Below the pieces are notes generated by a model. That model had not been told where the DNA came from and did no database searches. It saw only the letters and a list, made by a program, of their open reading frames with translations. From Ostreococcus lucimarinus (taxonomy: Eukaryota), in assembly GCA_000092065.1 (NCBI GenBank), contig CP000585.1: a stretch of 64,000 nt of DNA; one strand, given 5' to 3'. The position numbers were made by a program, and so were the translations under genes. The stretch's first letter is position 1, and the number at the start of each line of letters is the position of its first letter. Of this stretch, positions 64 through 59,922 are shown piece by piece.

Positions 64-694
64 CGCGTTCGCGCTTCCCGCGTCGTGAATCTCCCGCGAC
101 GCACCGTCGCCGTTCGCCGTCGCCGTTCGCCGCGCCGCGCGAAGCCGCGAATGCCGCGCGCGCGCGCCCATCCATCCATCGCGCCATCGTGCGCGCGCGC
201 GTCGAGCGAGGTGCGCACACCGAGACGGGATTTCATGATTCAGACCTGTCGCACGGTTCGGAAGCACGCACAGCCATAAAAGTCACTCGAATACGTATTA
301 AACATCGATAAAAGTCACCGCGACGCGCCGCGCGCGATCCGATCGCGCGCGCGCGATCTCCGTCCATCGCGGCGATGGATATACGTATCGATAGATGGCG
401 TTAAAACGGACTCGAATGCGGGAACCGGTTAACGATAAACACCCCGCACGTCGCGATCGACGCCGCGTTCGTCGCCGTGGATCGCGCGCGCGGCACACCC
501 GACCACGATGCACGCCGCGCTCACGCAATCGACGACCCTCGCCGCGACCGCGGTCGCCGCGACGCGCGCGACGACGTCGAAGACGACGCGCCGATCGTTG
601 GTGATCATGAATAACTCCTCGGGGCCGAAGCGGGTGCGCGACGCGACGCGACGACGGGAGACGCGACGGGAGACGCGCGAACGACGCGCGCGCG

Positions 695-734
695 GATCGA
701 TCGATCGATCGATCGCGGGCGAGCGATCGATCGC
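695..734. repeat. (GATC)n / CGATCG-rich low-complexity tract
   Basis: Direct reading: ggatcgatcgatcgatcgatcgcgggcgagcgatcgatcgcg. Confidence 0.7.
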
Positions 735-1103
735 GACGGGCGACGCGAGAAGCGCGCGAACGGAGGCGTGAGGGGGGAGAGCGGACGATGGGAAATTCGG
801 CGATCGGTCGCGCGGGAGACTGGGCGCGGGCGGGACTCGGGGAAACGGCGAGGGGGGGGCGATCGCGACGCGCGGGGTTGGGGCGCGAACGAGGGCGCGC
901 GAGGGGACGCGGGGAGACGGGGGGCGTGGAGCGACGACTGACGACGAGGCGCGCGCGCGCGTGATGTGTAGGGCACGAAGTCTGCGCCGGCGCAACGCGC
1001 GGTCGGCTACAAGGGCTCCACCGATGCCGGATCGGCGCCGAAGACGTGCGTGATGCGATGCGATGCGACGCGAGCGTATCTGGACGTTATCTCGCGCGCG
1101 ATA

Positions 1104-1174
1104 TGGCGGGAAGACGCGCGGCTGGGGGTGTGGCGACGATTGCGGGGCGCGCGAAGGCGAAAAAAATGGAAGAG
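1104..1174 (+). CDS. psbR: Candidate 5' exon of psbR (MAGRRAAGGVATIAGRAKAKKME + 2 nt)
   Basis: It begins at an ATG in AAAAAATGG context and ends at a GTAAAG donor. An ACTGAC branch lies ~35 nt before the CAG acceptor at 1251-1253, and the phase (exon ends +2 nt) matches the downstream exon. There is no obvious transit peptide, so further 5' exons may exist. Confidence 0.35.
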
Positions 1175-1253
1175 GACGTAAAGATTAAGGCGCGCGCGCG
1201 CGATGGGTTGAGAGACTGACGACGACGACGACGACGACGCGTGACGCGCGCAG

Positions 1254-1458: not shown

Positions 1459-1623
1459 GCGCGAGGCGACTTCATCGCGGGAGCGAATCCAAGTGATGTT
1501 TCGAGCGACGCTCGGCGACGGCATTATTCGGCGTCGGACGTCGGCGAATCAAAACTTTCACCTCCCATTTAGAACTTTGGCGAAACGGACGATAGAAAGC
1601 GAACGACCGCAACGAACACAACA

Positions 1624-1628
1624 TGTAA
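1624..1628 (+). promoter_or_regulatory. TGTAA candidate poly(A) signal for psbR
   Basis: TGTAA lies ~166 nt downstream of the psbR stop. UGUAA is the canonical poly(A) signal in chlorophyte algae. Confidence 0.35.
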
Positions 1629-1869
1629 TCCCACACAACGCGTGGATCTTAACGCCTCTTTCGAAACGACTTTCGCCGCGACGGCACATCGCTCGAATTC
1701 GCGCGCGTTTGAGGAGACGACAGTGATTAACTAGTACTGTGTGTGTTCATTGACATCATCACGAAGTCGGAGTTGTGTGGTGTTATTGGCTTTCGGCGTT
1801 TTTTTGTTTGTTTTCTGGTGGGTGGGTATTTGGGATGTTTTTTTTGTTTTCGTATCGGCTCGAGTGCGC

Positions 1870-4449: not shown

Positions 4450-5266
4450 CGCCTCGGAATCCGCAAGATCTGATCAAACAGTCACGACTTCGCCAACTTC
4501 TCCTACGCGTTCGATCGCACAACGTCGCGCCGTCAGTATTCGTTCGTTCCGCGGAAAATTCCACCGCCGCTTCGCCCTCGCGCGCGCCCCGCGTCGCGTT
4601 TCCCGCGCGATGAATGTTTCAGAAATTCAACCCTCGGAATCGCATTCGCGCGCCCCGCGCCCTCGCGCGCGCGTCCCGCGCCCGCCGACGCGTCGCGCGC
4701 GCCGGATCGCGCGATTTCGGATCGCGCGCGTCCGCGTCGCGCGCCCGCGACGCGCGCGCGCGGCGTAAACCGCGACGAATCGTCGACGATAATTCTTTGA
4801 GAGAATGACGTCGGCGCGACGATCTCGACGCCGTGTCGCCGCGCGCGCGCGCCGTCGCGCGTTGCGGACGTCGCGCGCGCGACGCGCTCTTCGCGTTTCG
4901 CGCGCGCGCTTCGCGCGGCGATCGAACGGCGCACCTTTGGACGGAGAGGAGGGGAAAAGAAGTGGCGCGAGGCGGCGGAGGGCGCCGCATCTGGACGAGC
5001 TCGCGAGCGACGGGCTCGACGCGACTCGACGCGCGATCCAGGTCGCGCCAGAGCGCGCGCGCGAAGTCCTGAGCGTAAAATACAATACAACGACGCGAGA
5101 AGCGTCGATGAGCGACGAGACGCGACGCGAACGCGCCGCGCGCGTCGATGGACGAGACGCTATCGAGCGGCGCCGAAGCGCGCCGCGAAGGAGCCGAGGC
5201 GGCGGTTCGGCCGAGGCGACGAAACCGCGCGTCCGAACGAACGATCGGCGACGCGGCGCATCGTCA

Positions 5267-7918: not shown

Positions 7919-9673
7919 ATGCGCGCCGTGACGTTCCCGAACGCGCGCCCGACGGGCGCGACGCGAACGGCGCGAGCGCGCGCGCAGGCGGCGAAACGCG
8001 CGACGCGGGGCGGCGATCATCAACGCAATCCGCGAAATGTCGAGAGGCATCGACGGCTGAGCGTCGTGATGCGACGCGATCGCGACGTCGCGATGCGCGG
8101 GGGGGTGAACGAAACGTTCGTGGATCTCGGAACGGCCTCGGGAGGGGTCGAGGAGGAGAAGGTGAGGGCGTCGGGGAAGACTCGGGACGACGAAGGGGAG
8201 ATGCTGTCGTTCGTGGTCTTCGGCGCGAGCGGGGACTTGGCGAAGAAGAAAATCTACCCGGCGCTGTTCGCGCTGTATTACGAGGGACGGTTGCCGAAGA
8301 ATTTCATGATTTACGGCTACGCGCGATCGAGCATGACGACGGAGGAGTTTCGGAATAAAATCGCGGAGTCGTTGACGTGTCGCATCGACTGGAGTAAGGC
8401 GGGGGAGAGCGACTGCGCGGCAAAGTCGGAAGAATTCTTCGCGCGGTGCGTGTACGTGCCGGGTCAATACGATCAAGCGAAGGACTTCAAGGCGTTGGAC
8501 GCGTTGATGTGCGAAAACGAACGCGCGGTTAGCAGCGTAAAGCGCGTGTTTTACCTGAGCATTCCGCCGAGCATCTTTGTACCGGTGGCGCAAAACGCGG
8601 CGCGCGAGTGCCAAAGCAAGACTGGGGACACGAGAGTCATCGTAGAGAAACCGTTCGGGAGAGACTTGACGAGCTCTCGCGAGTTGACCGCGGCGCTCGC
8701 GCAAGACTTGAGCGAGGAGCAAACGTATCGCATCGATCACTACCTCGGGAAGGAGTTGATTGAGAATCTCACCGTCATGCGCTTTTCGAACATCATGTTC
8801 CAACCGCTTTGGAACAGAAACTACATCCGCAACGTGCAAATCAACTTTAGTGAAAACTTTGGCACCGAAGGTCGCGGTGGTTATTTCGATAACTACGGCA
8901 TCATTCGCGACATTATGCAGAACCACTTGCTGCAAATCTTGGCGCTCTTTGCGATGGAGGAACCGGCGAGCCTGGACGCGGAGGACATTCGCAACGAAAA
9001 GGTCAAGGTGATTCGCTGCATGCGTCCGATTGAGATGGATAATGTCGCGTTGGGTCAGTACAAAGGACGAGAAACCGATGGGAAGAAGTATCCGGCGTAT
9101 TTGGACGACGAGACAGTGCCGAAGGGGTCGCTTTGCCCGACGTTCGCCGCGATGGCTTTGTTCATCGATAACGCGCGTTGGGACGGCGTACCGTTTTTGC
9201 TCAAGGCGGGTAAGGCCTTGCACAAGCGTCAAGCGGAGATTCGCGTGCAGTTCCGTCACGCACCTGGTAACTTGTACGGGGAAAGACAAGGTAGAGTTGA
9301 GCACGTCACCAACGAGCTCGTGATTCGCATTCAACCAGACGAAGCGATCTACTTGCGTATCAACAACAAAGTCCCGGGTTTGGGGCAGCGATTGGATCAA
9401 ACGATTTTAGATCTCCAATACAAGAACGCGTACGGTCAAGTTGAGCTTCCGGATGCGTACGAGCGTTTGATTTTGGACGTCATCAACGGCGACAAGCGTC
9501 TCTTCATTCGCAACGACGAACTCGAAGCGGCTTGGAAGCTCTTCACCCCGCTCTTAGACAAAATCGAAGAGCAAAAGATCGCACCGGAGCTTTACCCGTA
9601 CGGATCTCGTGGTCCGATCGGCGCTCACTACCTGGCTTCGCGTTTCAACGTGCGATGGGGAGACACCGAATAA
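7919..9673 (+). CDS. G6PD: Glucose-6-phosphate 1-dehydrogenase (long N-terminal extension, probably plastid-targeted)
   Basis: NADP-binding motif [23 protein letters not shown], active-site signature [14 protein letters not shown], and a C-terminal dimer domain. The ATG at 7919 was verified. Confidence 0.92.
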
Positions 9674-10788: not shown

Positions 10789-11174
10789 GTTCGACGCCGG
10801 TCCCGTCTCGCGGATCACCGCCGCGGTCTATATCGCGCGTCGCGTGCGTACGCATATCGTCAGTCGTCGATCTCGTCGCGCCACGCCGCCGCGCGGGGCG
10901 CGCGCGACGCGCACGCGTCGGTTTTCGTCGTCAAAAAGTGTCCCGGTGGATAAGCCGCCGCCAGACACTCTTTCGCGTCGCGTATTCGGTCGTTTCGAGC
11001 GCGCGCGCGCACCATGACATCGGGGACGCCCGACGCGAACGCGCGAACGCCCGTGAGGGTCTTGCGGAGCGAACGAGCCGATCGAGCGAGCATCGTGCGA
11101 GGCGAAGAGTGAGGTCGGGCCGGAGGGTTACAACCGGGCTGGCGCTCTGCGCGCGCGCTCTATGATACATACAT

Positions 11175-13440: not shown

Positions 13441-13544
13441 GGATATTTTCGTCGTCCGACGTCGTGGTCGGTCGGACGGGCGATCGCGCGGGATCGCGAT
13501 CGCGCGCGGCGCGGGGAGTTCGGCGCGCGCGAACGCGGCGCGCG

Positions 13545-14396
13545 ATGATCGTCTCGCGGCGCGCGCGAGCGGACGACGGCGGGCGCGCGGCGCGCGACGC
13601 GAGCGCGCGCGACGGGGGGAGTTCGGCGACGGGGATCCTGAGCGGCGCGGAGATCGCGACGCTGAGCGAGCACTCGTACGATCGCTTGCTGCGGTTGAAA
13701 CCGCGAGAGATCGGACGAGGGGATCGGTTGACGGCGGAGGAGACGGCGGTGACGTTCGATACGTTCGGGCCGGCGAGCGTGTCGGTGGACATCGTGAGCG
13801 TGGAGAGGGACGAGGGAGGGACGGGGGAGGGACGAGGGCGAGGGACGGCGGACGCGTTTGAGTTTTTTGAAAAGCGGGCGTTTTTGAAGGAGAGTTCGAA
13901 GAGGAACGCGATGGATTTGGCGCGGTTGCGACGGACGCGGATCGCGGACGAGCGCGCGAAGGTGCGGGAACGAGAGCGGGAGCGCGCGGCGAGCGCGCGA
14001 CCGCCGGGAGGACCGGGCGCGAACGGAGCGCCGCCAGAGGTTCGAAGGAAGAAGAGAGGTCGAGGACGGCCGCGAAAGGATGCCGTTAACGCCGCGTCGC
14101 GCCAGCGCGACGCGCGCGGGCGAAAACGGATGTACGACCGATCGACGGAGACGTGCGCGGAGTGCGGGACGCACCAGACGCCGCAGTGGCGAAGTCTTTC
14201 GGCGCAGTTCGCCGTGCTCGAGCGCGCGGGCATGCTCAACGCCGTCGTGTGTAACAGGTGTTACGCCCGCGCGAAGCGCAGAAGCCAACGTCTGGCTCAC
14301 CCTCAAACGACCACGTCGCTCGAGAAGGTCGACGGCGCGTCCGCGCCCGCCGACGCCGACGCCCTCGGCGCTCTGTGCGCCGCCGTCGACCTGTGA
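13545..14396 (+). CDS. GATA-type zinc-finger transcription factor with AT-hook
   Basis: CAECGTHQTPQWRSLSAQFAVLERAGMLNAVVCNRCYARAKRR matches the C-x2-C...TPxWR...CNxC GATA finger but with a 28-residue loop. There is an AT-hook (KKRGRGRPRK) upstream. The track start at 13464 is GTG. The first ATG at 13545 was verified. Confidence 0.65.
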   Translation: MIVSRRARADDGGRAARDASARDGGSSATGILSGAEIATLSEHSYDRLLRLKPREIGRGDRLTAEETAVTFDTFGPASVSVDIVSVERDEGGTGEGRGRGTADAFEFFEKRAFLKESSKRNAMDLARLRRTRIADERAKVRERERERAASARPPGGPGANGAPPEVRRKKRGRGRPRKDAVNAASRQRDARGRKRMYDRSTETCAECGTHQTPQWRSLSAQFAVLERAGMLNAVVCNRCYARAKRRSQRLAHPQTTTSLEKVDGASAPADADALGALCAAVDL

Positions 14397-21400: not shown

Positions 21401-22777
21401 CTCAGGCAGCCCATCTTCGTACCAGTCACTGTCGTAATCTTCACTATCGCGCTGCAAACGCTCGTTAAGCCAGTAATACAACATCACGCACATGACCAGT
21501 GTAAGGTAACGCGGCCACATGTACTTCCAAGAAAGGAGCGCCGGCGTCTGCAGTAAACCAAAGTCGAGCGGGGTGAGCTGTCGACTCAAACTACTCGGCC
21601 ACGCGTCCATGAGACTACCGGCGACCTCTGGTATGTTATAGACGTACAAAAGCGAGATGTACACGTACTGAAATGCGATATAATACCAAAGCGTATTTCG
21701 CAAACGCACCAGCCACTTATCTTGGAACTTCTTGGCGTCAACATCGGCGCCTCTCGTACCACTGAGGTTTCTCGCTGACGCCAGCATTCGCAAAATGGTC
21801 ACCAAAACTGTGACTATGTCCACAACTTGAATCATACTCATGGGCAATCCTCCAACGGTTGCTAAACCAGTGAACGTGATTGCGGCGGCTAAGATTGGAG
21901 CGTAGAGCAAAGGTCGATACCCTCCCACGCGGACTCTGAATCCCATCAGCTCTTGAAACTTGAATGAACTATCTATATCGCCGTGTGACACAGCCAAGGC
22001 GAAGCATGCGTTGGCCAACAGAGCGAAAATGAACCCAACAGTTTGCGCCGGTTTCATGCAACAAAGCCGTCCATTCCTACCCAAGGTCCAAAAGCCAAAG
22101 ATGTTTGCGACTTTGGACGTTTCTAATTCCTGCGACGTCGCCCCGAGCGAAGTAAACACATACGACCCGAATATGATCAATCCCGTCAGGAATTGCATTT
22201 TACCCGTGGTTGAAATTGCGTGCTCAAGTCGCGTCAAACGTGACGTGCGTGGATCACCGCGCCCGCCGACGAAACGCGTGTGCACCGCGACGAAGAGGAG
22301 AAACTGCAACACTCCGTTTGCCGAGTATCCCACGACGCCGCAACAAATGAAACCGAGCAGACGCCACCATTTCTGTATCGTATTCCGCAAATCTTCCTCT
22401 GTCAGCCCGACGACGAACATCAAACCTCGTCGCAAGTACTTCGCAATCGCTGTGGTTCTTCTCGACCCGCCAGCCTCCAAATGAGCCAACTCTCGTCTCA
22501 ATTCGCCTCGCGCCCACAGCGACGTCAAAGCCACGAACGCATCCGGAATGAGCGAACGCGTGCCGACCGTCGCTTCATCGAACTTTTGCAACCCGAACAC
22601 TTCCAGCCATTTCGTTGGGACTCGTTCCGCCCCGATCGCGGCGTACGACGTTTGAAAAACGACCTGCACGAACAAAAATCCTCCGGCGACGAACGTCGTA
22701 AACGTCACCGCCTTTGTCGACCGTAACACCGCCCTCGCCACCGGTCGCGTCGACGCGCACAGCGCGAGGTAACACAT
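15419..22777 (-). CDS. PIEZO: Piezo-type mechanosensitive cation channel homolog (~2450 aa, intronless in this model)
   Basis: Anchor-domain PF(x2)E(x6)W motif: PFLFEIRTLLDW. The C-terminal block GFVFVTVGFFVRTMYNFKLSDVFVNEIANTDELINVCRGLRLIR aligns to the Piezo1 inner helix/CTD (IGKFVRGFFSEISHSIMFEELPCVDRILKLCQDIFLVR). There are dozens of TM segments across 2.4k residues, consistent with the Piezo blade architecture. The track start at 22795 is GTG. The first ATG is at 22777. The N-terminus could be spliced. Confidence 0.85.
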   Translation of the reverse strand: MCYLALCASTRPVARAVLRSTKAVTFTTFVAGGFLFVQVVFQTSYAAIGAERVPTKWLEVFGLQKFDEATVGTRSLIPDAFVALTSLWARGELRRELAHLEAGGSRRTTAIAKYLRRGLMFVVGLTEEDLRNTIQKWWRLLGFICCGVVGYSANGVLQFLLFVAVHTRFVGGRGDPRTSRLTRLEHAISTTGKMQFLTGLIIFGSYVFTSLGATSQELETSKVANIFGFWTLGRNGRLCCMKPAQTVGFIFALLANACFALAVSHGDIDSSFKFQELMGFRVRVGGYRPLLYAPILAAAITFTGLATVGGLPMSMIQVVDIVTVLVTILRMLASARNLSGTRGADVDAKKFQDKWLVRLRNTLWYYIAFQYVYISLLYVYNIPEVAGSLMDAWPSSLSRQLTPLDFGLLQTPALLSWKYMWPRYLTLVMCVMLYYWLNERLQRDSEDYDSDWYEDGLPEGTPIRRLDMSKESESTKVEDINTMRPSIFLYHATATVLKHVKDSVGDEFESALHGVSMELLLLVATICVAFRVEVVSMLYVVVIMFACIELAVPTIRGKAPVPLRYGTFSVIGTSMRILTDSWRFLNRMRRIRSNVITAADITPPPIQTRRSPSGSSGWFRRHLRESDYHHAAPVSIHTEVNDYGFYLALLATISIVFKQLTLLTIFQSGSLNTLVNENWGSWLGLISLYDPRLGDDLQTTTSCCAWPYVLDSTKTFCQDASVAASSSNQFPTQACLTFTTNWYIFGAHYAVIIFAVLHGFLQRRHNVKVQRKAKSTTATAVPRASYWAKLRGEVQGCDVAKKLKLLIVAERMKNKNIETPVGKKKIVTTDEGMSPMVQQTPIRAEEDIFANLVKQVNAGSLKHSKSKIALYGWRPIVIRMVYRFVKWDVKNTFETLDSAIEQLASLKYLLAMAVLLINAFLKSDVTSSIYIIILGYFLAFNNRAGVVRFQSQGYAILLIIGAILAIHIMAALRLPPSWLNTNYCETCPEKRFWLDIWDCPSSAAAAPAPSAYLDCNSRPVFVHEYEIISDILVMLLVGHYVRKGHKNMVRDDVRTAWMRGYVKAKGQKMGSEWVQSEAFTSLANKVNTRLAERRKLDETSELSYDDKIKRWDAVNVQLQEYVPSVDADLQREEMKRANWTNRNLSRQVSIKEELQVIQEHYTFSQIASMAIHERRTTVRRRIEEIMGQFFLKFFYKYLLLVIVILTTTAAVAQHDSDFISLCYAGITILFSMRFNELRINTRIFPSRAHKWWNGELFRLLPVYVFTVLAAKLVYQIPYIKPILLNGRTARLGSCVVGTRMCETINSLFGVRKLGSACDATMLAADCVSVLGYSSGSIGVDVALFILCSVQAQLFSNERYVREVLRLEKNAMDKRARRSILYRKYILGWRAKIQQEIDEEYKMITDKVRASALQASEWTHFQKFRHTIDEETAAEKYVPEHVTVRAQNSTTVEVKWKMRGSTDDIEQFTIKRERSPRTTIFPHHVNPVKVDVDAESRAPSSHVISGLTPGMSYSFTVQSCSRSIGYGPPSEPSDVVTMPMPQDDEEGEEVLSGKDKLINGVAKVVHAARNSAAYLLDPALYPLPNDKGGESEWTRKGDWGGANIITGFGKIIYSQSERLLYIALVCNFIDHVDLMSACLVIFILAFAAMWNPQPLPEMWRFIFWYSVACFYARILLRSKAFCMELDANAKFDNRNKWYISAQPYCPTMTLYDPAADSEFSTLSATLLTVPRARNLVRDEVWTDIFLIVTLVLHMSHMHSLGQCTRRDAIPLAPREDYQTYHAGEFKDDIDLAALTSPPLEDVATGKTRQVETHHLEGRTSKERTRALRRRERRRAYMRTFGLFTRGIHVAQTRFRELVTQICLSNSAKMPKRNVGKPGVDLYSLEIFLQLIITCWFVTGYRNLVFESGTALSSTESFGTGLTISIVSSVMWIIVMRLVYLSQNIKLKFYLHFAQVVLYVSLVFIFLPLLDTRSFVSPRHNSHLKAFTVLMLFQFIVSALQLREGFREGYQFKIVLMRFGNTPVGRFVYNLINTLPFLFEIRTLLDWVVCDTSIDYVMWFRYETLYYLLHKTDMLISWRRNRRQYYSGAKPVPWPLKILLGGGIIAIIMLLLTGPIFIFSTFNPALTSNRIEAATMQVQLDFYADEKTERHRIYSGFATGYGMSSISQEAMKSELLRGLSFRSIDSDCVRFPKYSQSAWILPQSSKLALAQSLNTAAAASTCTAKMTITTEFTRLGPLKAKTVSQDLVATLTNAHCAALAGVITNGQGSIQFANVIPRGFHLTPETMVEILDFNTSAYIGLNMTLGSTPTANLWEVTPTSPSFPTAAPDFCGIDSTLPPSDYGVLYATISDRYLVGLVSSLGLSSYSLRALYGFVFVTVGFFVRTMYNFKLSDVFVNEIANTDELINVCRGLRLIRSLDYPGRRRDEMKMYYSLMRMMRESSLRRVISRNADEI

Positions 22778-22846
22778 AATGTAACAACACGACACCTACA
22801 TCGCGGCATCGCCATTCATCAGTCTTTCACTCTTCGCTCGCGAATT

Positions 22847-22898
22847 GTTCGCGTTCGCGTTCGCGTTCGCGTTCGCGTTCGCGTTCGCGTTCGCGTTC
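22847..22898. repeat. (GTTCGC)n microsatellite, ~9 units, ~70 bp upstream of the Piezo ATG
   Basis: Direct reading: gttcgcgttcgcgttcgc..., in the likely 5'UTR/promoter. Confidence 0.85.
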
Positions 22899-23274
22899 AT
22901 ACCAAATCACACCGCGCCGTCGACGCCGCGATCAGCGCCGCGCCGTGCACCGCCCTCGACATCGCCATCAGCGCGTCCGCGTCGGACAGCGACACCGATG
23001 CGTCGTCATCGGCTCCATCGTCGTCGGCTCCATCGTCGAAACTCAAACTTTTATTCGTCGTCGTCGCTCGATCCGCGCGCGACGACGACGCGCGCATCGA
23101 CGACGCGACGCGCGCCAACATGGTACTTTCGCGCTCGCCCCGCGCGCCGCGCTCGCGCGCGCGCGTGTGCGGCGCTTTCGAAAGATGACGAGTTAGTTGG
23201 TTGGGTGAAAAAGGAATTTCAAACTCTGGAGCGACAAAACGCGAATACAGTTACAACAACAAAGATGATAAATA

Positions 23275-31246: not shown

Positions 31247-32743
31247 ATGAATGGCGCTCGCGCGTCAATCGCGACGAGAACCGCGAGGAACTGTGCGTTT
31301 CGAAGCGTGGTGCTCCCGAGCGACGACGAACCGCGCGCGCAAAGTCAATCATCAATCATCTGGAATTGTCGACGAAAACGCGCCGACGGGCGAAGACTGA
31401 CCGCGCACGCATCGTCCGCGCTCGACAGCATGACCGCGATGCTCTCCGCGAAAGATCCGCCCTACGCGGACGCGGTCGTCACGAACGCTAGGGTGGCGGC
31501 GACGAAGCTGGAGAAGATGCTGTTCGAAAAGTGCAAGAGCGAAGAGTCGTACAAGCGCAAAGTTTTAAACAAAATAGAGTCGATCTCGGAGAAGATCATA
31601 CGCGACAGGGCGCAAAAGAATATGGAAGCGCAAGGCTTAAAAATGGCGGAAGCGCCGGCGAAGCGGGCGAAGACGGAGGGTGTGGGAGGTGGCGAAGCGG
31701 CTTCGACTTCGACGGCGCGTTCGCCGTACGAAGAGGGGCGAGCGTATTTTGAAGCGTTGTCGCCGGTGGATCAGAAAACCATGCGAAGGGACATCTTGAA
31801 GCGATGGTTGGAAGAGAATAAAGGGAAGACGGCGATCGCAAACGAGTTTCAATCGACCGAAGACGCGCAGGTGAGGAGGCAGATTTACGTTAACAAGCTC
31901 AAAGATCACCTCGATTTGCACATGTTCAAGTCGTTGACGAATCAGTTACGGGCGCAGCGTCCGACGATAATCAATCCCGAGCTTCAAGGATTTGTCGCCG
32001 ATCTCGTGGCGACGGATGCGATGGCGATGCAAGCGGAAACTAAGCGTCAAGCCATCGCCGCCGCCACCAAGTCGTCGACGGTTCAACCTACGTCAGAGTA
32101 TTGGCTCAAGGTGCACGAGTTGCACGAAAAATATCACGCCACGCTTAGCCGGGCGCTGAAGAATATTCAAAGCTTGACGAAGAGCGGAGAAAAGCTATCA
32201 GCGATTCGACAAAAGTTTGTCGACTTGCTGTCCAAGGTAATCTTGCCCGCTATCGAGCAAACTCCGAACAATCGCAACTTGAACGTCGAGGCGACGGTGA
32301 CGCATCTCGAGGAAATCGAGCGATCGATCAAGAAAGCGTTGTCATCGTACGACGTGCACGCACAGCGCATGCAAGACCAGAAACGTTTGTTGACGATGGC
32401 ACCGACGCAACGCGCCATCGTATCTCTCACCGAAGGCGTGGAGAACAAGAACAGAACCGACGCTCGTGCCGCCATCGCCGAGACGTGCTCGAAATTAAAC
32501 ATCGATTTCGACGACTTCACCGCCGATCTGTTCGACTCGGACGAGGAAGAAGACGAAGCGATCGACGTGAACGTACTCTTAAAGGACGTCTTCGCGAGCG
32601 CGGGTGATCAGGCACTCGAAATCGTCCCCGCGGGCGCGCCCGAAACCTGGACGCTCGAGCTCGGCAAGGACGTCGTCGCCGTCGGGTTTCGCGGCGACGC
32701 CATGTCTGAAACCGAGCGCATCGCCACCGTCGCCGAGTATTAA
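31247..32743 (+). CDS. Hypothetical alpha-helical protein; weak KIX/Med15-like N-terminal resemblance
   Basis: The track start at 31178 is TTG, so I used the first ATG at 31247. A later ATG (MTAMLSAKDPPY, ~31430) is also possible. The region DAVVTNARVAATKLEKMLFEKCKSEESYKRKVLNKIESISEKII resembles the KIX-like helices of Mediator Med15. The C-terminus is an acidic DSDEEEDE tail. Confidence 0.3.
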   Translation: MNGARASIATRTARNCAFRSVVLPSDDEPRAQSQSSIIWNCRRKRADGRRLTAHASSALDSMTAMLSAKDPPYADAVVTNARVAATKLEKMLFEKCKSEESYKRKVLNKIESISEKIIRDRAQKNMEAQGLKMAEAPAKRAKTEGVGGGEAASTSTARSPYEEGRAYFEALSPVDQKTMRRDILKRWLEENKGKTAIANEFQSTEDAQVRRQIYVNKLKDHLDLHMFKSLTNQLRAQRPTIINPELQGFVADLVATDAMAMQAETKRQAIAAATKSSTVQPTSEYWLKVHELHEKYHATLSRALKNIQSLTKSGEKLSAIRQKFVDLLSKVILPAIEQTPNNRNLNVEATVTHLEEIERSIKKALSSYDVHAQRMQDQKRLLTMAPTQRAIVSLTEGVENKNRTDARAAIAETCSKLNIDFDDFTADLFDSDEEEDEAIDVNVLLKDVFASAGDQALEIVPAGAPETWTLELGKDVVAVGFRGDAMSETERIATVAEY

Positions 32744-40308: not shown

Positions 40309-41051
40309 TCGCGCCGTCGGAAACGCGTCGGAAACGGGCCCGCGCGCGCGCGCGTCGCGCGCTCGCGCGCGCGTCGACGCGCGTCGCGTCGCGTCGCGTC
40401 GCGTCGCCGTCTGCGTCTCTTTTCTGACACACGGACGCAAAGAGGCGACGCCACGCATGAGATATCACACGGACCCAAAGAGGCGACGCGACGCGTGCGT
40501 CCGAGACGCGACGCATGCGTCTGACACACGGACCACACGCGCGCGCCGACGCGCCGCCTCCGCCGCGACGCAATCCGCGACGCGCGAACCGACGCGACGA
40601 ACGACGCAGAATGATCTCGCGCGCGACGACGGTGGCGATCGCGCCGAACGCACGCGCGCAAACCCACGCGCGCCAACGACGCGCGCCGAGCGTGCGGGCG
40701 TCGACGTCGGCGCCGACGCTGGGCGGACGACGATCGGCGATCGTCGGCGGCGGCGCGGTGGCGCTCGAACAGCGCGCGATGGCGACGCGCGCGGAGCGAC
40801 GACGGGTGGTGACGTGCGTGAAAACGAAGCGATGCGCGCGAGAGGGGTCGGACGCGACGAAAACGGCGACGGGCGAACGCGGGGGGGGGGGGATGAGTGA
40901 ACGCGCGCGAGAGAGAGAGAGGGTTTGCCGTCGACGCGAGAGAGAGAGAGGGCGCGAGGGCGAGACGCGGTGCGGGAGAGACGCGGTGCCGGAGGGTGCG
41001 AAGGAAAGGGGATGAAGACTGACGAGGAGGCGCGTTTTCGGAACGTCGCAG

Positions 41052-42051
41052 TCGCGCCGGTGGTGTGGCGAAAGCCGCGCCGGGCGAACCGAAGAAGGTG
41101 TTCGGGTTGACCTTGCCGGAGGGCGAAGGGATCTCTTTCGCGATTCTCGCCGCCGGTTCCCTCGGTTCCGCGCTCGGTTTCGCCGCGCTTCAAGAGGGCG
41201 TGTTCCGCATTCCGGGCTTCAAGTTCTCGGCGTGGATGACGGTTTTGACGACGTTTACGTACTTTTTGTGCGGCGCGCTCGAGATGAAGCTCACCAAAGA
41301 CTCCCGTAAGGGTTCTTGGAAGAACTACGGTATTCTTTCCGTGTACACCTACGGTGGTATGGCTTTGACCAACTACGCGTTGTCCTACTTGAACTACGCC
41401 ACCCGCATCGTGTTCAAGTCCGCGAAGATCATCCCCGTCATGGCCTTCTCCGTCTTGATCGTCGGCAAGAAGTACAACTGGAAGGAGTGGTTGTCGGCGG
41501 CGATTCTCGTCGCGGGCATCGTCCTCTTCACCCTCGGTGACGTCGCGTCCTCCCCGGCGTTCGCGCCGATCGGTGTTGCGCTCATCGCCGCCGCCTTGTG
41601 CGTCGATGCGATCTGCGCTAACTTCGAGGAGAAGAACTTCTTCCGTTGCGAAACCCCGTCGACGACGCAGGAAGTGCTCTGCTACGCGTCCTTGATCGGT
41701 ACCGCGTACGGTCTCGTCCCGCTCATCGCGTCCGGTGGCCTCGCTCCGGCGCTCGCTTTCTCTCAAGCGAACCCGCAAGTGGTGCCGATGATCATGGCCT
41801 TCTCCGTCATGGGCTACTCTTCCGTGTCTTTCATCCTCTCCCTCATCAAGTACTTCGGTGCCACCGAGGCTGAAATCGTGAAGTCGCTCCGCAAGGTGCT
41901 CTCCATCGTGATCTCCTTCGCCCTCTTCCCGAAGGAACTCAACTGGAAGTACATCGCTGGTTTCGCCGCCGTCGTCGTCTCCACGGTCTACACCTTCTAC
42001 CTCAAGCAACAAAAGAACGCCGCCAAGGCTGCCGCCAAGGCTGCGGAATAA
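41052..42051 (+). CDS. SLC35B-type (UAA family) nucleotide-sugar/PAPS transporter; 3' exon, first exon not located
   Basis: FAILAAGSLGSALGFAALQEGVFRIPGFKFSAWMTVLTTFTYFLCGALEMKL...YGGMALTNYALSYLNYATRIVFKSAKIIPVMAFSVLIVGKKY aligns with human SLC35B1. The frame is open only from 41023 and the 'M' at 41065 is a GTG with no in-frame ATG. An ACTGAC branch at 41016-41021 plus CAG at 41049-41051 implies an intron acceptor here. The stop at 42049-42051 is a clean TAA. Confidence 0.7.
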
Positions 42052-53878: not shown

Positions 53879-54063
53879 CGCGTCGACCGACGCGCGTCCG
53901 ACGACGACCGCGACCGGCCGCGCGCGGGTCGTTATGAAACCCGAGGGTTCGCGCGCGCCGCGTCGTCGGGAATGCAAAGCGTCATTTCGAGGCTGAGCGA
54001 TTGAAGGCGGGCGAACGGAGGACGACGAGCGATTCAACGAGAGACGCGGGCGAGTCCGGAGCG

Positions 54064-54777
54064 ATGCGCGACGCGGTGGAGGACGCGATGGCGCGCGCGA
54101 CGCGAACGCGGGCGCGAAGGCGCGCGACGCGGGACGCGCGAAAGGGGGAACGACGGACGTTCGGGACGGCGGCGAACGCGCGGGACGACGCGGGGCGCGA
54201 GCGCGGGTACCTGAAGAAGAACGAAGGCGCGTGGGCGGCGATCGGGGCGGCGATCGCGCGCGAGGAAGACGCGGTGAGGCGGGAGGCGCGAGTGAGACGC
54301 AAGGCGGCGACGCCGGGACGGGGAGAGACGTGGACGGCGCGAAGAGACGGCGAGGCGAGGAATTGGGTGCGGGAAAACGCGCTCGAGGCGATTCGCGGCG
54401 AGGCGTCGACGGCGCGCGGCGCGCGAAAGGGATCGAGCGAAGGCGCGTTCGCGAAGGAAGACTACGGTCGAGTGCCGGCGTATTTGGTGGAGTTTAATCG
54501 CGAGAGAGAGCGCTCGGAACGTCTCGAACGCGAGACGCGCGATAAAAATAGTCGCGAGCGCGAAGCCGCCGGGAGAATGCGAGACGACGAACGTCGAGCG
54601 CTGATCGAGGGTCTGCGCGCCGAGCACGCGAAAATCAGTTCTTCGTATCAGAAACTTCCCTTCGTCGTGGACACGCCGAACAGGCGCGCGCGAAAGGAGG
54701 CGCACGAGCTCAAGCTCGCGCGCATCGAATCCGACATCAACCTTCTCGGCGCGCGAACGGTGTTCATCGAAGGCTGA
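54064..54777 (+). CDS. Enkurin-domain protein (flagellar/ciliary)
   Basis: C-terminal block PAYLVEFNRERERSERLERE...RMRDDERRALIEGLRAEHAKISSSYQKLPFVVDTPNRRARKEAHELKLARIESDINLLGARTVFIEG parallels the human enkurin domain (...EEERQAVLEGLKKNWEEVNKEFQSLSVFIDS..KKIRKQKLEEEMKQLEHDIGIIEKHKIIYIA). Length is 237 aa versus 256 for human. The track start at 54001 is TTG. The ATG at 54064 was verified. Confidence 0.5.
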   Translation: MRDAVEDAMARATRTRARRRATRDARKGERRTFGTAANARDDAGRERGYLKKNEGAWAAIGAAIAREEDAVRREARVRRKAATPGRGETWTARRDGEARNWVRENALEAIRGEASTARGARKGSSEGAFAKEDYGRVPAYLVEFNRERERSERLERETRDKNSREREAAGRMRDDERRALIEGLRAEHAKISSSYQKLPFVVDTPNRRARKEAHELKLARIESDINLLGARTVFIEG

Positions 54778-57350: not shown

Positions 57351-57551
57351 ATGCCACCGACGGGGCCCTCGACGTCTGGGAAACTCGTCGTAGGTGTTCT
57401 AGTGACGGTTGCGACGTGCGCGGCGCTTGCGTCGAGCATTTATCCAGTGCTCATCGCCCCAGAGAAGCAGAGTGACAAAGCGCGCGCGCAGACGACTGGG
57501 CTCAAACGCGCCGGGATGTGGGACACCGTCGATCGCAAAGCCAAATCGTGA
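57351..57551 (+). CDS. Small single-pass membrane protein (67 aa), hypothetical
   Basis: MPPTGPSTSGKLVVGVLVTVATCAALASSIYPVLIAPEK... starts at an ATG. It lies in the gap between the Nup88-like gene and the 57630 gene. Confidence 0.25.
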   Translation: MPPTGPSTSGKLVVGVLVTVATCAALASSIYPVLIAPEKQSDKARAQTTGLKRAGMWDTVDRKAKS

Positions 57552-57629
57552 CGTGTCGTTTGCGTTCGATGCGAGCGATGCAGTGTAGATAATGTAGAAT
57601 AACAACGCACGCGTAGCTCAACGCGTCAA

Positions 57630-58121
57630 TCAAATGCCCAAACGCTTACGCATCTCTAACATGCGCTTCTGGTTCGTGTCAAACTCTCCTTCGTACGCGT
57701 CGAACGGCACCGATAAGTCCGAAATATCGATACCCTTTTCACTGCATCGCTTGGAGAGATCGTGCATCTTATTTCGCAACTGCACGTTCCCCAACATTCG
57801 CGACGGCAAGAAACGAGCGTCGCCCTTCTTCGGCGGTTTCCAATCCTTCGGCACCCAATCCATCCCTTCGGCGTCTCCGAATGGGTACGCATCACCCGGG
57901 AGGTCGAAATCGTAATACAAATCGTCCAGTTCGATCCCATTCGCCTTGGCTAAGGCGATCTCTCGCTCCAAATTTTTCTCGATGGCTTTCTGGCTGAGCA
58001 CCGTCGCCCCGACTGCGACGCCGGTGAGGGCGAAGAACGCCGTCATTCCACCCGCACGCGTGGTGACCGTCGACGCTCTCCTTGCAGAGCTCGAAGTCGG
58101 CGCGACGTTCGGCGTCGTGCG
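57630..58121 (-). CDS. Exon 2 of a presequence-bearing single-TM protein (hypothetical)
   Basis: ...RTTPNVAPTSSSARRASTVTTRAGGMTAFFALTGVAVGATVLSQKAIEK...KRLGI*. The frame is closed just upstream by a TAG that doubles as the 3' splice acceptor. Confidence 0.55.
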   Translation of the reverse strand, partial: RTTPNVAPTSSSARRASTVTTRAGGMTAFFALTGVAVGATVLSQKAIEKNLEREIALAKANGIELDDLYYDFDLPGDAYPFGDAEGMDWVPKDWKPPKKGDARFLPSRMLGNVQLRNKMHDLSKRCSEKGIDISDLSVPFDAYEGEFDTNQKRMLEMRKRLGI

Positions 58122-58259
58122 CTACGTGAGCGTCAAGCCAAAATTTTCGTCGTCAGTCGGTGGTTGGATACGATCGTCGTCGTGCGCGCGTTCGGCGTGT
58201 ATATCACGCCTGGGGGTCTCGAGAGCACCGCGCGCGCGAATACAATCGACTTTACGTAC

Positions 58260-58322
58260 CTTGACCGCGAGGGCTCGAGGCGCGGCGGCGATGCGCGCGT
58301 TCGCGGTGACGGTGAAGGACAT
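58260..58322 (-). CDS. Exon 1 of the same gene (MSFTVTANARIAAAPRALAVK)
   Basis: It begins at an ATG and ends exactly at a GTACGT donor (58259-58254). The 138-nt intron has ACTGAC ~37 nt before the TAG acceptor, and both exons are phase 0. Spliced, the N-terminus reads as a typical organellar presequence. The track's 'MRTMSF' start is a GTG. Confidence 0.5.
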
Positions 58323-58609
58323 CGTACGCACGAGGCAAGATATGCGGCGCGCGCGCGGAGAACGCGCGTTCGAATCTTAGTTTCTTCCCGCCGGTGACGA
58401 AGACGCAGACGTAGATACACGCGCACGTCACGTGCTCATGACACTGGTGACGGCGCAAAGTTCGCGCGCGTTTTGAAATGATGAACAGATCTCCTCCGTT
58501 ACAAGTTACGACACAAACGCGGCTATGAACACGTTTGTCGCCTGACACAACCCCCGACCCTCTAAGAACTTTAATTCAAACTCGTACGCATCCTAAGCGT
58601 TCGAAATTT

Positions 58610-58926
58610 TTACAATTTCGCAAGCTTGGCGGCTTCCTCCGCGTCCTTTTCGGCTTTGATAGCCTTGAGAATGCGCGGGCCGACTTGGCGCACGTTCATG
58701 CGCTCGACGCGAAGCTTTCTGTAAGCGCCGAAGTTCTTCATCTCATCGGTAACCGCGACCATCTCAACCGCCTTCTCAACCTTCTCAATCGGCATGATGA
58801 CAGAGCCCTTGTGTTGCGTCGCCGTGGCGAGGTCAGCCGCCGGGCTATCGCCGTGCTTCGGCTTGGAGTTCTTGCGCGGGAACAAGATCAACTTGGCCTT
58901 GTATTCCTCGAGGCGCTTCTTGTTGA
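58610..58926 (-). CDS. RPL13: 60S ribosomal protein L13 (eL13), exon 4 (coordinates +/-1)
   Basis: [50 protein letters not shown]... matches human RPL13 ([42 protein letters not shown]). The stop overlaps a TTGTAA, so the poly(A) signal sits on the stop codon. Confidence 0.8.
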
Positions 58927-59018
58927 GCTGCGTAATCGTAAAACGTAATATCATCAGTCTCGCGTTCGTCGTCGTTTCTCATCCCTCGCGCGTCGTCTCG
59001 CGCTCATCGCATCCTTCA

Positions 59019-59066
59019 TCGGCGCTCAGTTAGGGTCTGCGCGCGCGGACCCTAACTGAGCGCCCC
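59019..59066. repeat. Perfect inverted repeat/hairpin (16-bp stem, 10-nt GC loop) inside RPL13 intron 3
   Basis: gcgctcagttagggtc-tgcgcgcgcg-gaccctaactgagcgc. The stem contains a TTAGGG / CCCTAA hexamer. Confidence 0.85.
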
Positions 59067-59110
59067 CGTCTCGCGTGAGCTCCCGCGCCGTCGCGCTCGA
59101 ATGTACGCAC

Positions 59111-59197
59111 CGCCAAAGACTCCTCACTGCGGTTACGACGACGGTGGTCGACGCAGATCCCGATCGTCGGGGCCATCTTCTTGGAGATACCAGCCGC
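59111..59197 (-). CDS. RPL13: RPL13 exon 3 ([29 protein letters not shown])
   Basis: Matches human [29 protein letters not shown]. Flanked by a CAG acceptor and a GTGCGT donor. Confidence 0.75.
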
Positions 59198-59329
59198 CTG
59201 TCGCGCGTACACGATCGGTCCGTCAGTCTCGGTTCGCGATCGAGGGTCGCATCGCACGCGCGTTCGTGCGGCGCCTGTCGTCGTCCGTGACGCCCGTCGA
59301 GCATCGACGCGCGAAAGCTCAATACGTAC

Positions 59330-59490
59330 CTTCAATTCCTCGAGCGTGAACCCACGACCGAGACGGGTCTTGAAGTTGTACCGCTGCGTCGGCGGGTGCA
59401 CGAGCGGGCGGAGCGAGCCCGCGACGGGGCGCGGGAACGTCTTCTTCGCCTTCAACTCACGCGCGTTACGGCGAGACTTCTTGCGACCGG
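59330..59490 (-). CDS. RPL13: RPL13 exon 2 (..[54 protein letters not shown])
   Basis: Matches human [54 protein letters not shown]. It spans 161 nt starting in phase 2, with a GTACGT donor. Confidence 0.75.
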
Positions 59491-59644
59491 CTGCGTGCGA
59501 GGTAAAACGTAATTCGTTCGTCAGTGTGCGTTCGTCGAGATCGCGTCGTCGTCGCGCACGGCGTCGCATCGAGCGTCATGAGACGTCGTGACCGATGAAA
59601 GACCTAATCACGCAGCCGCGTCTCGGATCGCGCGCGCGACGCAC

Positions 59645-59744
59645 CTTGGTTGAGCCACGTGCGCACGCGGCATTGGCCGTTGATGGTGTTACCCTGCCAA
59701 TCCTTCTTGAAGTGCGCGTTGGGTAATTGGTTGTTGCCCTTCAT
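59645..59744 (-). CDS. RPL13: RPL13 exon 1 (MKGNNQLPNAHFKKDWQGNTINGQCRVRTWLNQ + 1 nt)
   Basis: Matches human [28 protein letters not shown]. The ATG sits in caagATGa context and the exon ends at a GTGCGT donor. Confidence 0.75.
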
Positions 59745-59922
59745 CTTGACGCGTCGGTAAAAGGCGGAGGCTGCACGCGCTCGATCGGGCATGGGCGAAA
59801 ATTCCCAAACCCTCGCGCGCGCGCTCGCGATCGAAGGCAAGGGCGAAGAGTGCGTTTCAAATCTATCATAACAACAACGCGTGCGTGCGAAATGCGAGCA
59901 AATAATGGTTTTGTGTGCGTGA

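What the first reader, a model, noticed from the sequence alone, without database searches (positions are those of the whole stretch)
58122..59644. Short introns with a rigid GTRCGT donor, ACTGAC branch and YAG acceptor in a minority of genes
The four introns I could delimit share one architecture. These are RPL13 introns 1-3 (~154, 132 and ~180 nt) and the 138-nt intron at 58122..58259. Each has donor GT[AG]CGT and an ACTGA[CT] ~28-37 nt upstream of a CAG/TAG acceptor. The same branch-plus-acceptor pair appears before the psbR 3' exon (1216-1253) and before the SLC35B frame (41016-41051). This is how I inferred hidden 5' exons there. Almost every other gene in the window reads as a single uninterrupted ORF. 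The split between intronless genes and genes with yeast-like constrained introns is worth quantifying.
Basis: seen in the sequence. Interest (0 to 1): 0.5.

Follow-up and report, generated by a model that had tools for sequence, protein, structure and literature searches.

The report
Known Ostreococcus constrained spliceosomal introns
The window is nuclear DNA of the tiny green alga Ostreococcus lucimarinus, and the flagged sequences are real spliceosomal introns with the strict GTGCGT / GACTGACG / YAG signals that were already described for this genome in 2008, so the finding is correct but ordinary.

Summary
All four introns sit at the stated coordinates: RPL13 59644..59491, 59329..59198 and 59110..58928, and the neighbouring gene 58259..58122, all on the minus strand. 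One 100%-identical cDNA-like contig has all four removed at exactly these GT..AG borders.

The spliced RPL13 is 221/221 identical to O. lucimarinus CCE9901 XP_001418121.1, so the source genome is known. The inferred 5' exons of psbR and SLC35B are also real. The SLC35B junction is confirmed by cDNA, and psbR in fact has two introns.

- a quinone oxidoreductase (cDNA-confirmed);
- a KIX/Med15-like gene (probable);
- a Piezo homologue (probable).

My count is 10 introns in 7 of about 38 genes. Eight of the nine best-supported introns carry ACTGAC, six carry GACTGACG, and their mean length is 190 nt. These figures match the published genome-wide values (87%, 66.5%, 187-188 nt).

The donor is strong but not rigid: GTGCGT x5, GTACGT x2, GTGCGC x2, GTATGA x1.

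Irimia & Roy 2008 described this architecture in this species. Lanier et al. 2008 showed that introns there are more common in highly expressed genes. Roy & Bowser 2022 found a standard U1 snRNA. Verdict: real, already known, low interest.

The parts
59491..59644 (-). RPL13 (eL13) intron 1: 154 nt, phase 1, donor aag|GTGCGTCG, branch CACTGACG, 30 nt from branch A to the intron end, acceptor CGCAG
   Evidence: Sequence. Absent from cDNA-like contigs L012/L013 at 100% identity and from sister-species cDNA contigs L001-L006. Homologues align across the junction without a gap.
59198..59329 (-). RPL13 intron 2: 132 nt, phase 0, donor aag|GTACGTAT, branch GACTGACG, 25 nt, acceptor GACAG
58928..59110 (-). 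RPL13 intron 3: 183 nt, phase 0, donor gcg|GTGCGTAC, branch GACTGATG, 26 nt, acceptor CGCAG. Contains a perfect TTAGGGTC/GACCCTAA palindrome at about 59021-59064.
   Evidence: Palindrome and fold.
58610..59744 (-). RPL13 gene: four coding exons 59744-59645, 59490-59330, 59197-59111 and 58927-58610, giving a 221-aa product
   Evidence: Spliced translation is 221/221 identical to O. lucimarinus CCE9901 XP_001418121.1. Homologues carry Pfam Ribosomal_L13e.
58122..58259 (-). Intron of the neighbouring conserved Mamiellales gene ('g2', function unknown): 138 nt, phase 0, donor aag|GTACGTAA, branch GACTGACG, 31 nt, acceptor CGTAG
   Evidence: L012 joins 58260 to 58121 at 100% identity. The 184-aa spliced product exists verbatim in transcript-derived collections as P0200. 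The orthologous intron is at the same place in sister-species locus L008.
57630..58322 (-). g2 gene: exon 1 58322-58260 (21 codons) and exon 2 58121-57630, giving 184 aa with an N-terminal presequence and one predicted hydrophobic helix
   Evidence: The reference protein XP_001418120.1 (138 aa) starts inside exon 2 and so lacks exon 1.
634..971 (+). psbR intron 1: 338 nt, phase 0, donor cgg|GTGCGCGA, branch GACTGACG, 30 nt, acceptor TGTAG
   Evidence: Contig L019 (and its product P0244) joins 633 to 972. Homologues are continuous across GPKR|GTK.
1046..1253 (+). psbR intron 2: 208 nt, phase 2, donor gac|GTGCGTGA, branch GACTGACG, 34 nt, acceptor CGCAG
   Evidence: The frame is restored, and six full-length Mamiellales PsbR proteins align without a gap across SAPKT|RSGK. 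Pfam PsbR matches residues 54-134. No fully spliced transcript of this species was retrieved.
10828..11012 (-). Quinone oxidoreductase intron: 185 nt, phase 0, donor atg|GTGCGCGC, branch GACTGACG, 32 nt, acceptor TATAG.
   Evidence: The spliced model equals XP_001418107.1. Four independent cDNA-like contigs, L015-L018, join 11013 to 10827.
22796..22902 (-). Probable intron after exon 1 of the Piezo homologue: 107 nt, phase 0, non-consensus donor ttg|GTATGAAC, branch GACTGATG, 23 nt, acceptor TGTAG. Contains a (GAACGC)n microsatellite.
   Evidence: The ORF starts exactly at the acceptor. In relative L032 the upstream ORF is kept with in-frame indels (-6 and +18 nt), the donor reads GTACGA, the branch and acceptor are identical, and the first exon-2 ATG is lost. 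There is no transcript evidence.
31293..31428 (+). Probable intron of a KIX/Med15-like gene: 136 nt, phase 2, donor act|GTGCGTTT, branch GACTGACC, 28 nt, acceptor GACAG.
   Evidence: Exon 1 is in frame with an ATG at 31231. Weak KIX_2, KIX and Med15_N profile matches run across the junction. In relatives L032/L033 all three exon-1 changes are at third codon positions and the intron has a 1-nt indel.
40814..41051 (+). SLC35B-type (UAA/DMT) transporter intron: 238 nt, phase 2, donor gac|GTGCGTGA, branch GACTGACG, 29 nt, acceptor CGCAG
   Evidence: The spliced model equals XP_001417875.1. cDNA-like contig L014 joins 40813 to 41052.
9016..9263 (-). Chance match to the composite motif (GTGCGT...TACTGACC...CAG) on the antisense strand of the G6PD coding sequence. 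Not an intron.

Best explanation
These are ordinary U2-type (major-spliceosome) introns of the nuclear genome of Ostreococcus lucimarinus CCE9901. They belong to the well-described constrained class found everywhere in this genome except the low-GC half of chromosome 2.

Their features are:
- a strong 5' splice site GTGCGT(G), with GTACGT and GTGCGC as common variants;
- a near-invariant branch site (G)ACTGAC(G);
- a fixed spacing of about 23-34 nt from the branch A to a YAG acceptor;
- no polypyrimidine tract, and a length of about 100-340 nt.

The inferred mechanism is the standard one. U1 and U6 read the donor, and SF1 and then U2 read the branch site. ACUGAC pairs with the U2 GUAGUA box with one G-U wobble and a bulged A. 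The first YAG at the preferred distance is used as the acceptor.

Because the genome keeps few introns, signal strength is concentrated in these core motifs, as in other intron-poor eukaryotes. The introns sit in the 5' half of coding sequences and interrupt only about one gene in five.

Shown here: the intron borders, their removal from transcripts, the source species, and the motif statistics. Inferred from the literature: snRNA pairing, the actual use of the branch A, and why these introns are retained.
For: Species identity: the spliced RPL13, QOR and SLC35B models equal XP_001418121.1, XP_001418107.1 and XP_001417875.1.

Removal from RNA: L012 and L013 for RPL13 x3 and g2, L014 for SLC35B, L015-L018 for QOR, and L019 for psbR intron 1, all at 99.6-100% identity with breaks exactly at GT..AG.

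Protein continuity across junctions.

Motif table:
- donors: GTGCGT x5, GTACGT x2, GTGCGC x2, GTATGA x1;
- branches: GACTGACG x6, GACTGACC, CACTGACG, GACTGATG x2;
- branch A to intron end: 23-34 nt;
- mean length of the nine best-supported introns (all but the Piezo candidate): 190 nt.

Enrichment over shuffles.

Orthologous introns in sister-species locus L008 keep position, donor, branch and acceptor, while the interiors are only 41-52% identical; the exons are 84-93% identical against that species' cDNA contigs.

Literature for this same genome:
- 87.15% of EST-confirmed non-chromosome-2 introns contain ACTGAC, 66.5% contain GACTGACG, and the donor consensus is GTGCGTG (PMC2483917).
- Mean intron length is 187-188 bp, 16% of EST clusters are spliced, and introns are commoner in highly expressed genes (PMC2367439).
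- Mamiellales prefer GTGCGY donors, with an unmodified U1 snRNA (bioRxiv 10.1101/2022.06.08.495308).
Against: Nothing contradicts this explanation. The limits are:
- psbR intron 2, the KIX intron and the Piezo intron rest on homology and comparative logic, not on a spliced transcript of this species.
- The Piezo donor GTATGA departs from the consensus.
- Use of the branch A, and U1/U2/U6 pairing, were not tested here; no snRNA gene lies in the window.
- I assume the Logan and JGI contigs are RNA-derived because introns are precisely missing. The sample types could not be looked up.
Confidence: 0.96

Rival explanations
1. The introns are copies of a mobile 'introner element' family, as in Micromonas pusilla CCMP1545. 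Their shared architecture would then reflect common descent by recent insertion rather than selection on the splice signals.
For: They look uniform at first glance. Introners do occur in a related genus (PMC4540971).
Against: - An all-against-all comparison of the ten introns finds only the splice motifs and low-complexity (CG)n and (GAC)n runs, with no extended similarity, and there are no other copies in the window.
- RPL13 and g2 introns are at identical positions in a sister species, yet the interiors are only 41-52% identical. This points to old, independently evolving introns.
Confidence: 0.02
2. The motif combination is a chance by-product of a CG-rich genome, and the apparent introns are artefacts of ORF reading.
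For: GTGCGT is common (68 copies on the two strands). ACTGAC as such is not enriched. One full composite match is demonstrably spurious (9263..9016).
Against: - The composite motif occurs 8 times against 2.05 expected, and none of 200 shuffles reached that.
- Seven introns are precisely excised in cDNA-like contigs.
- The spliced products equal reference proteins.
Confidence: 0.01
3. The introns persist because they carry functional cargo, either an intronic snoRNA or a cis-regulatory element such as a telo-box. Under this reading the uniform signals are secondary.
For: - The only conserved interior blocks of RPL13 introns 1 and 3 between two species are TTAGG(G)TC(TTT) motifs. These resemble the plant telo-box of ribosomal-protein genes (PMC3022908).
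- Intron 3 folds into a very stable hairpin (z = -4.65).
- Introns are commoner in highly expressed genes in this species (PMC2367439).
Against: - There is no Rfam match in the window, even at E <= 1 in the RPL13/g2 region.
- The motif is seen only in RPL13, not in the other six intron-bearing genes.
- The palindrome itself is not conserved in the sister species.
- This idea concerns why introns are retained, not what they are, so it is compatible with the best explanation.
Confidence: 0.15

Closest known systems
Constrained introns of Ostreococcus lucimarinus outside chromosome 2 (Irimia & Roy 2008, PLoS Genet, PMC2483917)
   Same: Same organism. Same donor (GTGCGTG-type) and same branch motif (ACTGAC / GACTGACG). 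The motif frequencies match: 8/9 here against 87.15% published, and 6/9 against 66.5%. Same low intron density.
   Different: Nothing substantive. The window adds individual examples and shows minor variants (GTGCGC, GTACGT, GTATGA, ACTGAT).
Intron excess in highly expressed O. lucimarinus genes (Lanier et al. 2008, PLoS One, PMC2367439)
   Same: Mean intron size (190 nt here against 187-188 nt). Share of spliced genes (7/38, about 18%, against 16% of EST clusters and an estimated 20-25% of transcripts). Intron-bearing genes here include a ribosomal-protein gene and a photosystem gene.
   Different: A 64-kb window cannot test enrichment. It also holds intron-bearing genes with no obvious high-expression role (QOR, SLC35B, KIX-like, Piezo) and a gene expected to be highly expressed that has no intron (EF-Tu).
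Hemiascomycete yeast introns (GTATGT / TACTAAC)
   Same: It works the same way. An intron-poor genome has near-invariant donor and branch motifs, a constrained branch-to-3'ss distance, a 5' positional bias, and introns in ribosomal-protein genes.
   Different: The consensus sequences differ (GTGCGT and ACTGAC). The share of spliced genes is higher (under 4% in yeast, per PMC2367439). It is an independent lineage, so this is convergence and not membership.
Mamiellales GTGCGY donors with an unchanged U1 snRNA (Roy & Bowser 2022, bioRxiv 10.1101/2022.06.08.495308)
   Same: The donor class seen here: GTGCGT or GTGCGC in 7 of the 10 introns.
   Different: The snRNAs could not be examined in this window.
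Introner elements of Micromonas pusilla (Simmons et al. 2015, PMC4540971)
   Same: Related genus. Short introns with canonical splice sites.
   Different: Introners are repeated sequence families. The introns here share no sequence beyond the splice signals.

Membership tests
U2-type (major) spliceosomal introns | GT...AG termini | tested here: met
   All ten introns begin with GT and end with YAG.
U2-type (major) spliceosomal introns | Precisely removed from mature transcripts | tested here: met
   Seven introns are absent from 99.6-100% identical cDNA-like contigs: L012/L013, L014, L015-L018 and L019. The other three rest on comparative and homology evidence only.
U2-type (major) spliceosomal introns | Removal restores a continuous conserved reading frame | tested here: met
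   RPL13, QOR and SLC35B equal the reference proteins. PsbR and eL13 alignments have no gap at the junctions.
U2-type (major) spliceosomal introns | Branch adenosine in a CTRAY context forms the lariat | not testable with these tools
   The motif is present 23-34 nt upstream of every acceptor. Lariat data are not available.
O. lucimarinus non-chromosome-2 constrained intron class (Irimia & Roy 2008) | Source genome is O. lucimarinus, in a region of normal GC content | tested here: met
   There are exact protein matches to CCE9901 reference proteins on an 847,696-nt record. Window GC is about 0.60. The chromosome number was not verified.
O. lucimarinus non-chromosome-2 constrained intron class (Irimia & Roy 2008) | Strong atypical donor GTGCGTG | tested here: met
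   Nine of ten introns fit GT[AG]CG[TC]. GTGCGT occurs five times, two of them with G at position +7. The one exception is GTATGA, the Piezo candidate.
O. lucimarinus non-chromosome-2 constrained intron class (Irimia & Roy 2008) | ACTGAC in about 87% and GACTGACG in about 66% of introns | tested here: met
   Counted over the nine best-supported introns, 8/9 carry ACTGAC and 6/9 carry GACTGACG.
Introner elements (Micromonas type) | Introns form repeated sequence families | tested here: not met
   There is no similarity among the introns, or elsewhere in the window, beyond the splice signals and low-complexity runs.
U12-type (minor) introns | Donor /RTATCCTT, with a branch TCCTTAAC 10-15 nt from the 3' splice site | tested here: not met
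   RTATCCTY occurs 4 times against 2.0 expected, and none of the copies is at an intron start. The donors here are GTRCGY.
Ostreococcus chromosome-2 atypical introns | Weak signals (GTRNGT donor, no common branch motif) in an intron-dense, low-GC region | tested here: not met
   The introns here are 107-338 nt long with GC 0.57-0.75, strong signals and low density. Published contrast: PMC2483917.
Hemiascomycete yeast-type introns | GTATGT donor and TACTAAC branch | tested here: not met
   The consensus here is different. The resemblance is functional and convergent only.

The most novel reading that the evidence does not exclude
The telomere-repeat-like blocks (TTAGGGTC, TTAGGTCTTTC) are the only interior sequence conserved between two Ostreococcus species in RPL13 introns 1 and 3, and an AGGGTTT motif lies upstream of the start codon in both species. 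They could be a green-lineage-wide 'telo-box' regulatory element acting from inside introns. That would give a concrete reason why a radically streamlined genome keeps introns in a highly expressed ribosomal-protein gene.
Probability: 0.15. Interest if true: 0.4.

Novelty: already known. Interest (0 to 1): 0.1.

Why it matters
The architecture itself has been a published textbook case since 2008. It illustrates how splice signals sharpen when a genome loses most of its introns.

The practical residue is small:
- The motif set is a reliable gene-model aid in this genome. It recovers 5' exons that ORF reading misses, and one that the reference protein set also misses: g2, where XP_001418120.1 has 138 aa against the transcript-supported 184 aa.
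- The donor is less rigid than the four flagged examples suggested.

Tried and rejected
- Rfam on the whole window at gathering thresholds, and on 57500-59900 at E <= 1, found nothing, so there is no known intron-hosted snoRNA or other RNA family.
- Introner hypothesis: rejected by the all-against-all intron BLAST.
- U12-type introns: rejected.
- A codon-usage log-odds gene map was too noisy in this GC-rich DNA to define genes. I used Pfam scans and the gene calls on syntenic contigs instead.
- A truncated GATA-finger Pfam match at 13464..14396 suggested a split domain. Reading the sequence showed a complete, long-loop finger in one ORF, so there is no intron.
The exact-sequence cluster look-up worked instead.
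- My psbR and KIX models are not in the collection verbatim. One likely reason, which I could not check, is that ORF callers extend transcript ORFs upstream of the true ATG, as in P0244.
- Loci fetched to obtain a sister species for the KIX and Piezo region (L020-L024) turned out to be the same species at 98.6-100% identity and were uninformative. The metagenome scan finally gave a more divergent relative, at 87% protein identity (L032/L033).
- A possible 5'-UTR intron of the bromodomain gene (donor GTGCGC at 4934, branch TACTGACG at 4536, acceptor at 4503) could not be tested.
Full report
**1. What is at the coordinates**

I read the minus strand of 57600-59800. It holds two genes.

RPL13 starts at 59744 and is interrupted three times:
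- 59644..59491, 154 nt;
- 59329..59198, 132 nt;
- 59110..58928, 183 nt.

A small neighbouring gene, which I call g2, starts at 58322 and is interrupted once, at 58259..58122 (138 nt).

The donors are GTGCGT, GTACGT, GTGCGT and GTACGT. The branch motifs are CACTGACG, GACTGACG, GACTGATG and GACTGACG. The acceptors are CAG, CAG, CAG and TAG, and the branch A lies 25-31 nt from the intron end. The only adjustment is that intron 3 is 183 nt rather than about 180.

**2. Are they real introns?**

Yes. Joining the four RPL13 exons gives a 221-aa protein that aligns without a gap at any junction to eL13 from other green algae and plants.

It is 221/221 identical to Ostreococcus lucimarinus CCE9901 XP_001418121.1. 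This also identifies the source of the window.

A contig assembled from a public sequencing run (L012) matches the window at 100% identity in five blocks. The block ends fall at 59645, 59492/59329, 59199/59111, 58928/58260 and 58123. So all four introns are precisely missing from one molecule that runs from RPL13 into g2.

A second contig (L013) shows the three RPL13 junctions. Six cDNA-like contigs of a sister species show the same three junctions.

The 184-aa spliced g2 product occurs verbatim in transcript-derived collections.

**3. More than chance?**

The bare hexamer ACTGAC is not enriched in the window: 15 copies against 20.8 expected.

The composite signal is enriched. I defined it as a donor, then ACTGA[CT] inside a 60-400 nt span, then a YAG starting 18-38 nt after the branch A. 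It occurs 8 times against 2.05 +/- 1.40 in 200 dinucleotide-preserving shuffles, and none of the shuffles reached 8. With the extended branch GACTGA[CT]G it occurs 7 times against 0.69, with a shuffle maximum of 4.

Eight of the 15 ACTGAC copies are branch sites of supported introns. One composite match, 9263..9016 on the minus strand, is a false positive lying antisense to the G6PD coding sequence.

**4. The other two loci named in the finding**

SLC35B:
- A donor GTGCGT at 40814 pairs with the branch and acceptor at 41018-41051.
- The resulting 400-aa model, with its ATG at 40611, is identical to XP_001417875.1.
- cDNA-like contig L014 joins 40813 to 41052.

psbR:
- The branch and acceptor at 1215-1253 pair with a donor at 1046.
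- The exon upstream of it has no start codon and is itself preceded by another branch and acceptor (937-971).
- The gene therefore has three exons, 508-633, 972-1045 and 1254-1458, and two introns.
- The 134-aa product aligns full-length and without gaps to PsbR of other Mamiellales and matches Pfam PsbR.
- Contig L019 lacks exactly 634..971 while retaining intron 2.
- Intron 1 uses GTGCGC, not GTGCGT.

**5. Census of the window**

I combined a relaxed motif scan, ORF boundaries, Pfam scans and gene calls on syntenic contigs. This gives about 38 genes.

(a) Quinone oxidoreductase, intron 11012..10828, donor GTGCGC:
- The spliced model equals XP_001418107.1.
- Four independent cDNA-like contigs show the junction.

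(b) A KIX/Med15-like gene, intron 31293..31428:
- A 21-codon first exon joins in frame.
- Weak KIX profile matches run across the junction.
- In a related species the three exon-1 differences are all at third codon positions, and the intron carries a 1-nt indel.

(c) The 2458-aa Piezo homologue (Pfam Piezo_cap and THU9_anchor), candidate intron 22902..22796:
- Its ORF begins exactly after a GACTGATG...TAG pair.
- The related species keeps the upstream ORF with in-frame indels, keeps its ATG, and has lost the first ATG of the large exon.
- This intron is therefore probable.
- Its donor is GTATGA here and GTACGA in the relative.

The total is 10 introns in 7 of about 38 genes (18%):
- Donors: GTGCGT x5, GTACGT x2, GTGCGC x2, GTATGA x1.
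- Branches: GACTGACG x6, and GACTGACC, CACTGACG and GACTGATG x2 for the other four.
- Branch A to intron end: 23-34 nt.
- Lengths: 107-338 nt, with a mean of 190 nt for the nine best-supported introns (all but the Piezo candidate).
- All lie within the first 52% of their coding sequence.
- There is no polypyrimidine tract between branch and acceptor in most of them (my reading of the intron sequences).

**6. What they are not**

- They are not introner-type repeats. The ten introns share nothing beyond the splice signals and (CG)n or (GAC)n runs.
- They are not U12-type introns.
- They host no known RNA family.

The RPL13 and g2 introns of a sister species (locus L008) sit at the same positions and have similar lengths (141, 129, 192 and 158 nt). 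Their donors are GTACGC, GTGCGT, GTACGT and GTACGC. Their branches are AACTGACC, GACTGACG, GACTGACG and GACTAACC. The intron interiors are only 41-52% identical, whereas the exons are 84-93% identical against that species' cDNA contigs. These are therefore old introns in which only the splice signals are held constant.

**7. How it works**

This is standard major-spliceosome splicing in an intron-poor genome, with recognition concentrated in the core motifs.

Shown here: the exact borders, the removal from RNA, the motif frequencies, and the conservation of the signals but not of the interiors.

Inferred from established knowledge and the literature:
- The donor is read by U1 and U6.
- ACUGAC pairs with the U2 GUAGUA box with one G-U wobble and a bulged A.
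- The first YAG at the preferred distance is used as the acceptor.

Roy & Bowser (bioRxiv 10.1101/2022.06.08.495308) report that Mamiellales prefer GTGCGY donors while their U1 snRNA keeps the standard pairing sequence. The +4 C is therefore not explained by a compensating U1 change.

**8. Comparison with what is known**

Irimia & Roy 2008 (PMC2483917) analysed this very genome.
- Among EST-confirmed introns outside chromosome 2, 87.15% contain ACTGAC and 66.5% contain GACTGACG.
- The donor consensus is the atypical GTGCGTG.
- My window gives 8/9 and 6/9 over the nine best-supported introns.

Lanier et al. 2008 (PMC2367439) report the following for the same species.
- Mean intron length is 187-188 bp.
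- Introns occur in 16% of EST clusters and in an estimated 20-25% of transcripts.
- Intron presence correlates positively with expression, and this holds after ribosomal proteins are removed.

The resemblance to yeast is functional convergence, which is the thesis of the 2008 paper. It is not membership, because the consensus sequences differ.

**9. Verdict**

- psbR has two introns.
- The donor is strong but not rigid.

Novelty: already known. Interest is low.

**10. Leftovers**

These are listed in full under "noticed in passing":
- a truncated reference model for g2;
- a conserved telo-box-like motif and a palindrome in the RPL13 introns;
- an ambiguous contig lacking psbR intron 1;
- the low GC content of the Piezo gene.

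Noticed in passing
window 57630-58322 (-): The reference protein for g2 (XP_001418120.1, 138 aa) starts at the Met inside exon 2. Transcript contig L012 and the transcript-derived protein P0200 support a 184-aa product with a 21-codon first exon and the 138-nt intron. Homologues in other Mamiellales also have a presequence of about 45 residues. The public gene model therefore appears to be truncated.
   Followed up: yes
window 59021-59064 (RPL13 intron 3), 59597-59607 (intron 1), 59807-59813 (upstream of the ATG); L008 8432, 8986, 8213: RPL13 intron 3 contains a perfect palindrome, GCGCTCAGTTAGGGTC...GACCCTAACTGAGCGC. The intron RNA folds at -77.6 kcal/mol (z = -4.65). TTAGGGT occurs nowhere else in the 64 kb. 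The sister species has TTTAGGGTCTTT in intron 3 and ATTTAGGTCTTTC in intron 1, where the window has ATTAGGTCTTTC. Both species also have AGGGTTT 60-100 nt upstream of the start codon. These are the only conserved interior blocks, and they resemble the plant telo-box of ribosomal-protein genes (PMC3022908).
   Followed up: partly
L019 (JGI 3300016797 contig) versus window 145-4305: This 3.8-kb contig lacks psbR intron 1 exactly. It retains intron 2, includes about 360 nt upstream of the ATG (where all 18 mismatches lie), and runs into the convergent bromodomain gene. It is most likely a partly spliced transcript merged with overlapping transcripts. If the sample is DNA, it would instead be an intron-less allele.
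   Followed up: partly
window 15419-22795 (-): A 2458-aa ORF encodes a Piezo-type channel homologue (Pfam Piezo_cap, THU9_anchor and fn3). Its GC content is about 0.50, against about 0.60 for the rest of the window. The putative 5' intron holds a (GAACGC)8 microsatellite whose copy number differs in a related species.
   Followed up: partly
window 4503-4934 (-): There is a donor-like GTGCGC at 4934, then a TACTGACG branch at 4536 and a TAG acceptor at 4503, all upstream of the start codon (4449) of the single-exon bromodomain/BET gene (identical to XP_001418103.1). This may be a 5'-UTR intron, but it is untested.
   Followed up: no
window 54001-54777 (+): An ORF matches the Enkurin domain clearly (E = 1e-19). 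As far as I know, this family is usually associated with cilia and flagella, and Ostreococcus has no flagellum.
   Followed up: no
window 13464-14396 (+): An ORF carries an atypical GATA-like zinc finger with a long loop (C-x2-C-x25-C-x2-C). Pfam matches only its first 14 positions.
   Followed up: partly
L001/L002 and L012: cDNA-like contigs join neighbouring genes: ABC1 with RPL13 in the sister species, and RPL13 with g2 in this species. This fits overlapping or read-through transcripts in an extremely compact genome. Contig membership alone therefore does not define transcription units.
   Followed up: no
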